Below are positions 27,465 to 48,447 of a DNA stretch of 64,000 bases, in pieces. Under the pieces are notes generated by a model, which worked only from the letters and a program-made list of their open reading frames with translations, made no database searches and was not told the origin of the DNA. Location: contig NC_042999.1 of assembly GCF_006345805.1 (NCBI RefSeq), positions 85,994,001 through 86,058,000 of the forward strand. Reading direction: 5' to 3'. Source of the DNA: Octopus sinensis. Its lineage: Eukaryota. The position numbers and the translations under genes are program-made. Within the stretch, counting starts at the first letter, position 1. The number at the start of each line of letters is the position of its first letter.

Positions 27465-30400
27465 CACACACACACACACGCACACACACACATGTTACAG
27501 GATTTCTGAATATAGAAAGGAGAGGAAACAGACAATAAAAGAAACAAAAACATTTATTGTTTATATGTATTAGGAAATATTTTCTTACATTTTATAATTT
27601 TCAGATGAATTATTATTAGAGTGGTAAACATCACATATTTTCTGCTTCAGTACAATTAATCGCTGTGTGATACTGTAGGGGTGTACGATTTTAAACACAT
27701 ATCAGCGAAATGCATATGTGTAGGATATAACCCCGAAGAAGATCAGAGAAAATATTGTTCTCGTTTGTAGTATGTTATAAATAAAATATAGTTATGTGCG
27801 GGCTATCTTAATGAAATGAGGCCCAGACAATTTTTTAATCATTTGGAATTACACCCGTACTGAGAAGAAAAGTCATTTATGGAAATGAAAATTCTTGTCA
27901 AGGAAGGCAAGGACTACAGTATTAACATCAATTTAATTATTTTCACAGTGTGCTGCTTAAAATTAATTAGTGCTTTGGAATCTAAATGAAAATTAGCGGT
28001 AATGACAATTCCTGTCAAGGAAGAAATGCAGTGGATTGTAACTGTGATCTTTGGTAGCTTCGGTGATAACTTTAGACAAGTTTCGGTCTTATTACACCTC
28101 CTCAGCAAAGTATGGTTTAACACCCACTTACTAGATTTAAGAACGCCTGAGATGATATAATTTTGTATGGAAATTATTCACTAATTAGGAAATTTAGAAT
28201 AATGGCACTAGAAAATATTTCTAGATTGCCTCATGCGTGAAGAACAGATAGTTAAGTGTAGGCTAGCACATTTAATGTAATGAGTCAAAAATAATTTATA
28301 ATGAATTGAAACTATATTCATAATGACAATAAAAGTTAAGTGTTGATAACAATTTTAAAGACAAGATAAAGTTTGATTAACTACTCACTACTCAATGTAT
28401 ATATGTGTGAGTGTGTGTGTGTGTGTATGTATGAATATATGTATATGTGTGTGTGTGTGTATATGTATGTGTATATCAACTTGTAAAGAAACTCGTTATT
28501 ATTCACATTTCAATTTGCAGGTTAAATAGAAACTTAGATTTTATAAAAAAAAAATGCTCATGGTTTTAAATATATTTAGATTGGTGACCTGCATACATTT
28601 CTGAGTCGCGTTCACCAATTTGTAATGCAATAAGAAAGATAACTTTAGATTTTATGTGCTTTAAAATCTAATCTAATTACTTTTGGACTCGTACGCATAC
28701 AAACAAGGACATACTCTATTCACAAATACAGAGAAAAATTGACAAATACAAAACACATTCTTATTCACATATAACGAGTTTAAATGGTGTAGAATAATCT
28801 AACATGAAAAGAGGGAGCGATTAATATTGTATATGTTACTACTATACTGAGCAGAGTATGTATTTATTAGAGCACAAAACTTTTTAATATCTTTATTCCA
28901 GTTTCCACGAAGACAATATTCAAATAACTCGTCATCTTAGGAATTCTCATATATTGTACTGGAACATTTAAAACAAGTGGATCTCCTCAGATACAACAGA
29001 ATATAATGGAAAATTTACCATCAAAGACAACCTACAGTTACTCTTCCTTTCTAATAACATTTCCTTGGCAAAAATATTTTCTTTTATATTTTTTCTGGTA
29101 GTTCTTGTTGATTATTAATACTAATTAGGTATTGATCCTGAAAATTATGTATAATGTGGATGGTTTTACAGGTCAGATAAAGCATGTATGAAATTTGAGT
29201 ATCGGTAGCGAAAGGTACAATGAAATTTTTAGATTAAATTAACAATGTTAACCTTGAAAATGTTTTATTTCAGGCATTTACTTATTTGTTAACTTATTAC
29301 TTTATGTACATGTATGATATTTTATATATTTATTATTTTATTATTTTGCTTATCAATTCTAATTTATTATATCGGTTATAAAAGAATTTCCCGCAAATTT
29401 GATTTTTAAAAACTTTTATTCTATTTTTCACTCAAACGTTCCAGTTTTACTTACTTGCACATAAAACAATCTAGCGTGTCATTCTTATTGCTCAGCAGGT
29501 GTTCCATCACGTAAAACTAATTTTTCAAATTTCTATTTTCTATACTCAAAATATCTGAAGCGGTGAAAATTTTTTATGTATCAAATTTCCATTGACCATG
29601 CGATCAGTCTAACTCCACTATATAAACATTTTTGTTCATTTTTCAGTTTAAAAAAACAAAACAAATAGAAGCGGAAATACCACTTATATGAATTTAATTC
29701 AGCATTAATGAGAACAAATTCAGATTTTTCTACAACGGAAAATAAAAATTCTTTTCATAATTATAAAACAGTTGTGTATAGTTATGTAAGTTATTTCAGT
29801 ATCTTACAGGTACTAATTTTATGAAAACTGGCGAGATGAAAGAGGAGGTCAACCTCGGCAAGATGTGAATTCTGAAACACATTAGACCGAACTAAATACT
29901 GCAAAACATTTTAGACCGGCATCCCAATGTCTTCAATGAAAAAGTAATAAAATAGCTAAGAAGAGCTAAAATTTGTAAAAGAGAAATAAAAAAATCTCAA
30001 TTTATTATTTGCAATGTCCCAAATATATTTCGGTTCATCCGTTAACGAAACGTCTGCATTTGACAATAATTCTAAGAAATGCAATTAGACTTTTCTTAAG
30101 AAAGAAACAAATATATAAAAAAAACAAAGAAAAATAAATTAAGCATTTCATAATTATTGAAAGAAATTAAGCATTTTATAATCATTGAAAGTTTAATGAA
30201 GTCATCTCCAGTATAACCAGACATGTCTCTTTAGTCTTTGTTATTCGCTAACTTAGAATTGGTAATAAACGAACATATATATTTGTTATTTGATTATTCA
30301 GCAAATTATAAATTAGCAATTAACAAGGGTTTCATTTTCATTTTGATACCACGTATATGCTAAAGTTGCAACATTTAACAATAAGGGAAATGAAAATGAT

Positions 30401-31907: not shown

Positions 31908-32369
31908 TCATTTGCATACATGAACATCAACGTAATATTCACAAGTATCGCATATCACCTCGCAACACCATTCAAATTTGCAGTGACAACGTTCCGTTAC
32001 TTTCTTACGGAATGAATTGTAACCTCTCCCACAGCACATTAATGCGCAGCCACCAAGGCCTTTTGATGTCCAGTCACATTCCCTTCCGACTGTTCCAAGA
32101 ACGCCTGCTGCAGGGTTTGTCGTACAGTAATCAGGTGAGTCGTCCAAGTAGATAATATCCTCTTTTGTAGGTTTGTTGAACTTATGATTACGTCGAACCA
32201 GCCGAGTGCCTCGGCTGTTAAAATGAACTTTAGTGGCTCCATTGTATTTCTCTTTAAGTCGGTTTCCTACCGAGCGGAAATCTGGTAATGACTGCCAGCA
32301 AGTCTTCAGACTACAAGAACCAGACACACCGTGACATTTGCAGCTAACAGTAGCATGTTTGAAGATCGC
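31908..32369 (-). CDS. Wnt5: Final coding exon of a Wnt ligand, Wnt5 subfamily (153 aa + TGA; partial gene)
   Basis: Translates AIFKHATVSCKCHGVSGSCSLKTCW...SPDYC...CALMCCGRGY...ERCHCKFEWCCEVICDTC...HVCK*. It has the Wnt CKCHGxSGSC signature and C-terminal cysteine pattern. SCSLKTCW, LKEKY, NSRG and ERCHCKF match Wnt5. A T-rich tract plus acceptor (tttatttgcag|GCG) puts the exon start at 32369, phase 0; stop TGA at 31910-31908. The ORF-track extension to 32411 is intronic. Confidence 0.93.
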   Translation of the reverse strand, partial: AIFKHATVSCKCHGVSGSCSLKTCWQSLPDFRSVGNRLKEKYNGATKVHFNSRGTRLVRRNHKFNKPTKEDIIYLDDSPDYCTTNPAAGVLGTVGRECDWTSKGLGGCALMCCGRGYNSFRKKVTERCHCKFEWCCEVICDTCEYYVDVHVCK

Positions 32370-32400
32370 CTGCAAATAAATAAATAAATAAATAGATAAA
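32370..32400 (-). promoter_or_regulatory. 3' splice acceptor of the last Wnt5 intron
   Basis: Minus strand reads (TTTA)n-TTTGCAG directly before the exon; Wnt homology starts at this AG. Confidence 0.85.
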
Positions 32401-32619
32401 TATATAAACAAAGCAGAATTAAAACGTGTATAAGAAATAGCAACTGCAATATATCAGGATTTTTGGGGCACCCAAAATATTTGAAATTCATTCTAAAAAC
32501 ATGCATACATGTGCGTGTGTGTGCGAAAAGGGTTGCTGTCTGACTCCACTAAAAAGTATTGCACGAGCCTTCAATTTAATGTTGAATTATATATATATAT
32601 AACTTCCCATAAAACAAGC

Positions 32620-46930: not shown

Positions 46931-47641
46931 ATGTGTGTGTATGTTTGTGTGTGTTCGCGTACATGCATACTATGATCAGCTTAGGACGAAGCTTTTTGGA
47001 TAAGACTATCTTACTGATAACATTAAGTAAAAGATGCAACTTGAGTGTGTTTGGAATGTAGTAATTCTGATAATAACATTTTAATAACATACTGCGTAAT
47101 TGTAATAAGCAGATTTCCATAACTATCTATCTATCTATCTATCTATCTTTCGTTTTTGGATTTTCTTTGCAAGATTCTTTATATGAGTTCGTGTGTTGAA
47201 GCATATTCTGTTGTGTCTGAAGAGAGTCATTTTCTTTTTGTGCTTTATGATTTAACTCATCGGTAAAATTTCTTATTTCTATTTTTATTTTCCTGAAATT
47301 TTCTTATTTCTATAATAGAAATATTAAAATTACTAAGTCTCTCTAAAGGAGATTACGGCAGCGTTACTGGAAATTAATAGTTATCGCCATACTAATATGG
47401 TAGTCTTATAAATATAAGACTAAAGCTGTCGCTGATTAACTCCAAGAGGCCACCGCCTCAAGCTAGCTATTTGACACAAAACCTGCGTCCATTATAAACC
47501 TTCGAACAAGGGAGGTCAGCCGCTTCATCCTGCCAGTCAGACAGCTACAGACATGTTTCAGGGTTGTTGCCCCTTATCAAACTACGTAAATAAAGCCTTC
47601 GAACTGGGACGATCAGTAGCGACACCTGCAAGTCTGACTAC

Positions 47642-47684
47642 GCTGCATTGATAAGGGGCAACAACCCTGAAACATGTCTGTAGC
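47642..47684 (+). ncRNA. Type-I hammerhead with compensatory U3-A8 core
   Basis: gctgca-TTGATAA-gggg caacaa ccct-GAAA-c at-GTC-tgtagc: 6-bp stem I (one GU), 4-bp stem II, palindromic ACAUGU stem III, GUC triplet. Confidence 0.72.
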
Positions 47685-47916
47685 TGTCTGACTGGCAGGA
47701 TGAAACGGCTGACCTCCCTTGTTCGAAGGTTTATAATGGACGCAGGTTTTGTGTCAAATAGCTAGCTTGAGGCGGTGGCTTCTTGGAGCTAATCAGCGAC
47801 AGCTTTAGTCTTATATTTATAAGACTGCCATATTAGTATGGCGATAACTATTAATTTCTTATTTTTATTTTCCTAAAATTTTCGTTGCGTCTTGCACCTT
47901 TTCAATAGAATCAAGA

Positions 47917-47953
47917 CTATTGAAAAGGTTGCAAGACGCAACGAAAATTTTAG
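47917..47953 (+). ncRNA. Second U3-A8 hammerhead-like motif (mirror copy at 47870-47910, minus)
   Basis: cta-TTGAAAA-g-gttgc aagac gcaac-GAAA-a-TTT-tag: perfect 5-bp stem II, AAUU stem III, short stem I. Confidence 0.5.
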
Positions 47954-48447
47954 GAAAATAAAAATATGAAATAAGTGGAAATTTTACCGGTGAGTGTGTT
48001 AAATTATAAGGCACAAAAAGAAAATGACTCTCCCCAGACACAACAGAGTATCTGTTTATCTATATGCGAAAAAGGGTAAGTTATATAACATATAAGATAT
48101 ATTCTTGATTTATTAAGTTATTCTCGCTTACGTTAGACTAGGAGTCTGGCGGTAATTCATACCAATGGCAATTGAAAAAAAAAGACAATCTCAAGAGCCA
48201 AACATTTCCCTAAATCGATACTCTATTAGGTAAGCAGAGTTAGTAACAATAAATCAAGAATTTATCTTGATTATTATTTAATATATCCTTATTAGACTTT
48301 GTTGCTTAAATACATATATACCTTGTGCCCTTTGAGTTATTTCTTTAAGGGCATTTTCGTTTCGTTTATACAAATTACTTAATTTGTTCTCTTTTTCTTT
48401 TGTATATATCTAAGTGCCTAGTCTGTTGGAGATAAGGTAGGTCAAAT

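What the first reader, a model, noticed from the sequence alone, without database searches (positions are those of the whole stretch)
47370..47858. Young 211-bp inverted repeat carrying a hammerhead with a U3-A8 compensatory core
Seen: arms 47370-47580 and 47648-47858 differ at only 4 positions by eye, with a 67-nt spacer. The core reads UUGAUAA instead of CUGAUGA, and both arms share it. Established: positions 3 and 8 base-pair in the active hammerhead, so C-G to U-A is a covariation. Stem I (GCUGCA/UGUAGC), stem II and GUC are all intact. The inverted arm starts exactly at the first core nucleotide, so only the + copy can fold. Inference: a recently active element with a functional variant ribozyme that canonical CUGANGA searches would miss.
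Basis: partly seen in the sequence, partly recalled or inferred. Interest (0 to 1): 0.75.

Follow-up and report, generated by a model that had tools for sequence, protein, structure and literature searches.

The report
Inverted retrozyme copy, swapped hammerhead core
This inverted repeat is one back-to-back copy of a 364-base, protein-free repeat found at over a thousand places in the genome; it carries a hammerhead self-cutting-RNA motif with a rare but already published core swap, was likely pasted in from RNA by a Penelope-type jumping gene, and this particular copy is predicted not to cut.

Summary
In detail: 211-bp arms, 4 mismatches, type I hammerhead with U3-A8. It is not a palindromic element. 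It is one head-to-head insertion of a dispersed and tandem ~364-nt non-coding family (1,778 U3-A8 core matches genome-wide; 2 C3-G8 matches, both unrelated loci). The left arm runs 58 bp beyond the repeat, the Penelope 'tail'. In 30 of 30 classifiable inverted loci, one arm ends at monomer ~275 and the other at ~336. Family-level selection on the ribozyme is visible: position 7 varies freely and the loop-3 palindrome swaps ACAUGU/ACGCGU/ACUAGU, pointing to dimer cleavage. This copy is probably inert: single sense motif, antisense in a Wnt5-like intron, buried in dsRNA on read-through. U3-A8 is published (bacteria 2011; Schistosoma Penelope elements 2014), as are inverted copies with a tail. 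The insertion sits inside a second, unrelated U3-A8 hammerhead repeat. A young Hydra-type Penelope element with the same footprint is a candidate driver, unproven. The scan found this family before, in this genome and others. New member of a known kind.

The parts
47312..47580 (-). Left arm: 5'-truncated inverted copy of the ~364-nt monomer, positions 68-336; hammerhead lacks the 5' strand of stem I
   Evidence: BLAST to monomer L002:1501-1864, 97.8%; CM hit with broken stem I
47312..47369 (-).
   Evidence: ends of 95 of 107 family segments fall at A or B
47581..47858 (+). Right arm: monomer positions 1-278, ends at site A; includes the 67-nt 'spacer'
47642..47684 (+). Type I hammerhead motif: stem I 6 bp, U3-A8 core, stem II 4 bp (G.U at 10.1-11.1), palindromic stem/loop III 47672-47677, predicted cut after C47678
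   Evidence: sequence
47579..47580 (.). 2-nt microhomology at the inversion junction
   Evidence: overlap -2; overlaps of 1-9 nt at 19 of 39 junctions
47275..47303 (+). Target-site duplication, left copy (about 24-30 bp, 2 differences); followed by 8 nt (47304-47311) that repeat target letters
   Evidence: (D12); single in 14 uninterrupted host copies
47854..47883 (+). Target-site duplication, right copy; first letters shared with the element end
47150..47303 (-). Host repeat, distal part of its long arm (interrupted by the insertion)
47854..48051 (+). Host repeat, centre and short arm: a palindromic family whose two arms end about 60 nt apart
47917..47954 (+). Second, unrelated minimal hammerhead-like motif of the host repeat, also U3-A8
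   Evidence: 2,950 genome matches, 94 of the first 100 listed U3-A8, 0 C3-G8
31908..32453 (-). Reading frame holding the last exon of a Wnt5-like gene; the previous exon lies at G000:C3:86073864-86074241, so the locus is in the last intron, complete hammerhead antisense

Best explanation
The inverted repeat is one head-to-head insertion of a ~364-nt protein-free repeat family with a fixed U3-A8 hammerhead motif, likely a non-LTR retrozyme copied from RNA by a Penelope-like retrotransposon's enzyme. Shown: family, copy number, monomer length, tandem arrays, two preferred 3' ends 61 nt apart, one arm at each, target duplication, conserved fold. Inferred: tandem arrays are transcribed; two neighbouring motifs pair through the loop-3 palindrome and cut as a double hammerhead; monomers likely circularise; a Penelope-type RT-endonuclease nicks both strands of AT-rich DNA and primes reverse transcription from each nick, one at site A and one at site B; the two truncated cDNAs are joined by microhomology, which gives the inverted repeat with a tail on one side. 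This copy is predicted to be a dead-on-arrival passenger: one sense motif, antisense to the host intron, masked by its own inverted arm.
For: Family: 2,320 candidates, 40 scored, 94-97%; 364-nt period; arrays up to about 10 units; no family ORF in the loci read. Core: U3-A8 1,778, all four states 1,807, C3-G8 2 and both without monomer similarity. Position 7 A40/U38/C15/G5 in 98 motifs; stem/loop III palindromic in 76 of 98, in three 6-nt forms; palindrome pair GC 15, AU 12, GU 4, gap 3 of 34. Monomer folds well as a circle (z -6.0, 60 shuffles; z -6.5). Ends: 47 at A, 48 at B, 12 elsewhere of 107; 30 of 30 classifiable inverted loci A+B, p about 1e-9 against independent ends; 58 of 95 ends run into (AT)n. 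Both arms share a variant seen in 1 of 40 other units. Published Penelope signature matches. A young 717-aa RT plus C-terminal endonuclease element with Hydra-clade motifs has the same two-end, (AT)n footprint.
Against: No cleavage, circle or transcript is shown. 5' ends do not gather at the predicted cut (1 of 83 within 97-101), so cutting leaves no footprint. No autonomous element sharing the monomer was found; the Hydra-type tail is no more alike than shuffles (443 of 500 score as high). 22 of 98 motifs have a non-palindromic loop III, one form (8 copies) looks like a propagating subfamily, and L120 has C3.A8 in both arms, so an intact ribozyme may not be needed for each jump. Array units do not separate rolling-circle copying from copying of a multimer; L121 shows a later block duplication. 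32 of the family loci were hand-picked from pattern lists, many for being paired; in the less biased first set 13 of 28 are inverted. 7 of 37 inverted loci have one end at neither site and were left out of the 30.
Confidence: 0.82

Rival explanations
1. The copies are truncated pseudo-LTR remnants of an autonomous Penelope-like element, not a self-propagating retrozyme; no RNA circle is involved.
For: Same footprint as autonomous elements; only 59 of more than 1,700 places were read.
Against: Monomers join head to tail without coding sequence in arrays up to about 10 units; tblastn with the 717-aa protein finds no element that continues from a monomer (only nested or nearby fragments in L022, L026, L048, L127, L128).
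Confidence: 0.1
2. This copy is a working cis ribozyme or a co-opted dsRNA element regulating the Wnt5-like gene.
For: Motif intact on the + strand; stem I forms (0.99) if transcription starts at 47560 or later; a 211-bp duplex would form in the intron RNA.
Against: Complete motif is antisense to the gene; hammerhead pairs drop to 0.00 once the RNA starts at 47540 or earlier; stem II register only 0.15; no tandem partner; divergence (3 of 269, 4 of 278 from the family majority) is like other copies.
Confidence: 0.05
3. A MITE or fold-back DNA transposon with 211-bp terminal inverted repeats.
For: Long inverted repeat, short spacer, flanking duplication.
Against: Arms are unequal, breakpoints differ at every locus, about half of the first-set loci have no inversion, tandem arrays exist.
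Confidence: 0.02
4. Assembly artefact (false palindrome).
For: No contig of the 4 runs laid bridged the junction (uninformative, see Tried and rejected).
Against: 4 mismatches between arms, one-sided 58-bp tail, target duplication, same architecture at 36 other loci.
Confidence: 0.01

Closest known systems
Metazoan non-LTR retrozymes (Cervera and de la Pena 2020, PMC7229834, passages read; Li et al. bioRxiv 10.64898/2026.07.22.740005, part 1 of 5 and passages)
   Same: Non-coding 150-450-bp monomer (mussel 350-390 bp), type I hammerhead per unit, tandem and solo copies, low GC, weak palindromic helix III, co-occurrence with Penelope-like elements
   Different: U3-A8 core; frequent head-to-head inversion with a strict two-end rule, which I did not see treated for retrozymes in the passages read; RNA circles not shown here
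Penelope-like element insertions with inverted 5'-truncated copy and one-sided tail (PMC8557442, PMC3846280 passages; PMC11167929 parts 1-2 of 4)
   Same: Head-to-head inversion, tail on one end only, two RT start sites, AT-rich or (TA)n targets, variable target duplication, microhomology junctions
   Different: Tail about 61 nt instead of 30-40; no ORF; mobilising family not identified
U3-A8 hammerheads (Perreault et al. 2011, PMC3088659; Schistosoma Cercyon elements, about 1,300 hits, PMC4209133; passages read)
   Same: Same compensatory core pair; reported active in vitro by a paper cited there (PMC1986816, not held, not read)
   Different: Here in a 6-bp stem I / 4-bp stem II motif of a retrozyme-like family; this subfamily has G.U at 10.1-11.1
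Hydra-clade Penelope-like elements (PMC8557442, passages)
   Same: The candidate driver in this genome has RWK, DKT and CxCX5C motifs, C-terminal endonuclease and (TA)n targeting; same two-end footprint
   Different: No sequence homology to the monomer; its hammerhead has a different core (C3-G8, C at 4)

Membership tests
Type I hammerhead ribozyme | Core boxes and three stems in type I order, NUH site | tested here: met
   Rfam models do not hit
Type I hammerhead ribozyme | Watson-Crick pair at 3-8 | tested here: met
   U3-A8 in 1,778 of 1,807 pattern matches
Type I hammerhead ribozyme | G10.1-C11.1 pair | tested here: inconclusive
   G.U in this copy and 18 of 34 distinct rows, G-C in 12
Type I hammerhead ribozyme | Self-cleavage after NUH | not testable with these tools
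   no assay; no 5'-end footprint
Non-LTR retrozyme | Short non-coding monomer with one type I hammerhead, in tandem repeats | tested here: met
   364-nt period, arrays of 4-10 units
Non-LTR retrozyme | [quoted passage not shown] | tested here: met
   met by the family (L046, L047, L121, L122); this locus alone has one complete motif
Non-LTR retrozyme | Highly self-paired monomer | tested here: met
   circular fold z -6.0
Non-LTR retrozyme | Expressed as linear and circular RNA | not testable with these tools
   no RNA holder listed; only contigs available
Penelope-type insertion footprint | Inverted 5'-truncated copy with tail on one end, AT-rich target | tested here: met
   30 of 30 classifiable loci
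Autonomous Penelope-like element | RT plus GIY-YIG ORF between pseudo-LTRs | tested here: not met
   no such frame in the window or continuing from a monomer in the loci read
MITE / fold-back | Fixed terminal inverted repeats shared by copies | tested here: not met
   junctions vary at every locus

The most novel reading that the evidence does not exclude
The strict rule that one arm ends at site A and the other at site B (30 of 30) is a genomic record of twin priming by a Penelope-type enzyme dimer, here a Hydra-clade one acting in trans on a circular retrozyme with no sequence homology to it; and U3-A8 has been fixed in at least two unrelated families of this genome because a slow, dimer-gated hammerhead suits such circles. 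The pair (intact 717-aa ORF plus 364-nt RNA) would be a ready test system for how animal retrozymes are mobilised.
Probability: 0.3. Interest if true: 0.55.

Novelty: new member of a known kind. Interest (0 to 1): 0.27.

Why it matters
As a locus it is ordinary: one inert copy of a repeat. As a family it adds an octopus-like retrozyme that standard descriptors and Rfam miss, and gives counted evidence that retrozymes insert with the Penelope footprint, a link so far argued from co-occurrence and phylogeny. The two-end rule makes a clear prediction for in vitro priming by a Penelope-type enzyme.

Tried and rejected
Rfam, whole window at gathering score and 47300-47900 at E 10: no hammerhead family. 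Sequencing runs: no RNA holder listed; contigs of X1, X2, X3, X5 and X1, X2, X3, X7 are broken by the repeat and none bridged the inversion junction: uninformative for expression, polymorphism or artefact. C3-G8 sister family: 12 matches against 16 control with a short pattern, none with monomer similarity; 2 matches with the long pattern, unrelated loci. One search used a wrong loop length and is ignored. Cleavage footprint at 5' ends: not seen. Homology of monomer to the Hydra-type pLTR or tail: not seen. Rolling-circle test from array periodicity: inconclusive. Target duplications at other loci are mostly hidden in (AT)n. A canonical C3-G8 motif at 28059-28120 shares the layout but not the sequence. 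The kinetic paper on 3-8 exchanges was not held. No supplements were read; they may list octopus retrozymes or U3-A8 families.

Full report
Observation. The inverted repeat is real: arms 47370-47580 and 47648-47858, 211 nt, four mismatches, all transitions, 67-nt spacer. On the + strand 47642-47684 reads as a type I hammerhead: stem I 6 bp, core UUGAUAA, stem II 4 bp, GAAA, a 2-bp stem III inside the palindrome ACAUGU, and GUC ending at 47678. Rfam finds no hammerhead in the window at gathering score nor in 47300-47900 at E 10. The genome is 2.72 Gb; 'octopus-like' is my inference from size and microsatellites and from earlier scan notes, not a record name.

What the unit is. The right arm plus spacer has 2,320 candidates in the genome; the 40 scored are 94-97% identical apart from the self hit. 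Flanks show a 364-nt monomer that joins head to tail, in arrays up to about 10 units. The left arm is longer than the repeat: it continues to about 47312, monomer position 336, while the right arm stops at 278. The 'spacer' is simply monomer positions 1-67. The junction has 2 nt of microhomology. The insertion interrupts a palindromic host repeat and duplicates about 24-30 bp of it.

The core swap. Pattern counts with positions 3, 7 and 8 set or free give 1,778 U3-A8, 1,807 for all four states and 2 C3-G8; the two C3-G8 places have no monomer similarity, so 27 are single changes, as decay would give. With a stem I anchor, 98 of the first 100 listed of 276 are U3-A8. U3-A8 is thus fixed in the family; it covaries only against other families, such as the canonical motif at 28059-28120. 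It is published: Perreault et al. report natural U3-A8 cores and cite in vitro activity (PMC3088659, passages); Cervera and de la Pena report about 1,300 U3-A8 motifs tied to Schistosoma Penelope-like elements, and motifs on opposite strands 100-700 bp apart (PMC4209133, passages).

Is the ribozyme under selection? At family level, likely. In 98 motifs from 59 loci (62 fetched, 3 duplicates dropped) position 7, the free core position, is A 40, U 38, C 15, G 5, and stem/loop III is a palindrome in 76, in the forms ACGCGU 46, ACAUGU 23, ACGU 4, ACUAGU 3. On 34 distinct rows the central palindrome pair is GC 15, AU 12, GU 4, gap 3; stems I and II vary on one side only; 97% of cells pair (rows are related, so counts are not independent events). 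This is the double-hammerhead signature described for metazoan type I motifs. Against: 22 of 98 are not palindromic, L120 carries C3.A8 in both arms, and 5' ends do not gather at the cut (1 of 83). In an anole Penelope element, hammerhead mutants did not impair insertion in vitro (PMC11167929, part 2 of 4). The monomer folds well as a circle (-114.7 against -86.1 +/- 4.8 kcal/mol, 60 shuffles).

How the inversion arises. Of 107 family segments 47 end at site A (265-285), 48 at site B (330-345), 12 elsewhere; 58 of the 95 run into (AT)n. 37 of 59 loci hold a head-to-head pair; in all 30 where both ends are at A or B, one is A and one is B; 7 have one end elsewhere (p about 1e-9). Many of the later loci were picked for being paired, which biases the inversion rate (13 of 28 in the first set, query included) but not which ends pair. 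This is the published Penelope pattern: inverted 5'-truncated copy, tail on one end (PMC8557442, PMC3846280, passages), and two RT start sites with nicks on both strands. I infer twin priming from one RNA; both arms share a variant seen in 1 of 40 other units. Arkhipova et al. proposed self-priming on an antisense template for such inversions, which is not excluded.

Who moves it. A fragment beside one copy (L022) led to a young family: 26,363 candidates, 150 scored at 92-100%, three with 717-aa frames. It has RWK, DKT and CxCX5C motifs and a C-terminal endonuclease-like part, as described for the Hydra clade (no Pfam hit). 26 of 30 copies end at two sites about 67 nt apart, mostly into (AT)n. 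Its terminal repeat is not homologous to the monomer, so it is a candidate only.

This copy. Wnt exons flank the locus on the minus strand (best solved match Wnt-5a), so it lies in the last intron with the complete motif antisense. On the + strand stem I forms at 0.99 if the RNA starts at 47560 or later, but all hammerhead pairs fall to 0.00 from 47540 or earlier; the stem II register is 0.15 because G.U at 10.1-11.1 lets A9 compete. There is no tandem partner. The arms imply about 2.6 My (0.7-6.7) with the rate given for Octopus vulgaris repeats (PMC13282606, passages). It is predicted inert; a 211-bp intronic duplex is its likely only effect.

The host. The interrupted repeat carries its own minimal U3-A8 motif at 47917-47954: 2,950 matches, 94 of the first 100 listed U3-A8, 4 C3.A8, 2 U3.G8. 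In 13 of 14 other loci the partner arm reaches about 60 nt further than the short arm used as query. The site is one Penelope-type insertion inside another.

Novelty. Four paper searches listed no description of this family; supplements were not read. The scan itself noted the family at least six times in this genome and in others; I had written the same reading before looking. Every component is known: retrozyme, U3-A8 core, inverted copy with tail. Verdict: new member of a known kind, interest 0.27.

Noticed in passing
window 47917-47954 (+), host repeat 47150-48051: Second, unrelated family with a minimal U3-A8 hammerhead-like motif, 2,950 genome matches, palindromic copies with a one-sided ~60-nt tail
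   Followed up: partly
window 28059-28120 (-): Canonical C3-G8 type I hammerhead-like motif with similar layout, not homologous to the monomer
   Followed up: partly
G000:C3:133912726, C10162:52790, C5:61735466 (L108-L110): Young, very abundant Hydra-type Penelope-like element with open 717-aa frames; its hammerhead core has C at position 4
   Followed up: partly
L022:1773-2896: That element sits at the 3' end of a monomer copy with a 26-nt duplication of monomer sequence preceded by an (AT)n run that the target lacked; hints that (AT)n tracts may be partly made during insertion (one case)
   Followed up: no
L056:3679 to L134:3895: A monomer is split at positions 46/33 (14-nt duplication) by about 8 kb that begins with a zinc-knuckle ORF; one case of the 'landing site' noted by earlier agents
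   Followed up: partly
L120, L127-L130: Older subfamily (about 80% identical) with loop-3 palindrome ACUAGU and a G-C to U-A change at the outer stem I pair; L120 has C3.A8 in both arms
   Followed up: partly
window 31908-32453 (-); L136:5864-6241; L142:2749-3021: Three exon-bearing frames of a Wnt5-like gene spread over about 105 kb
   Followed up: yes
L121:1923-5487: Ten-unit array in which units 3 and 7, 4 and 8 are nearly identical: later block duplication
   Followed up: partly
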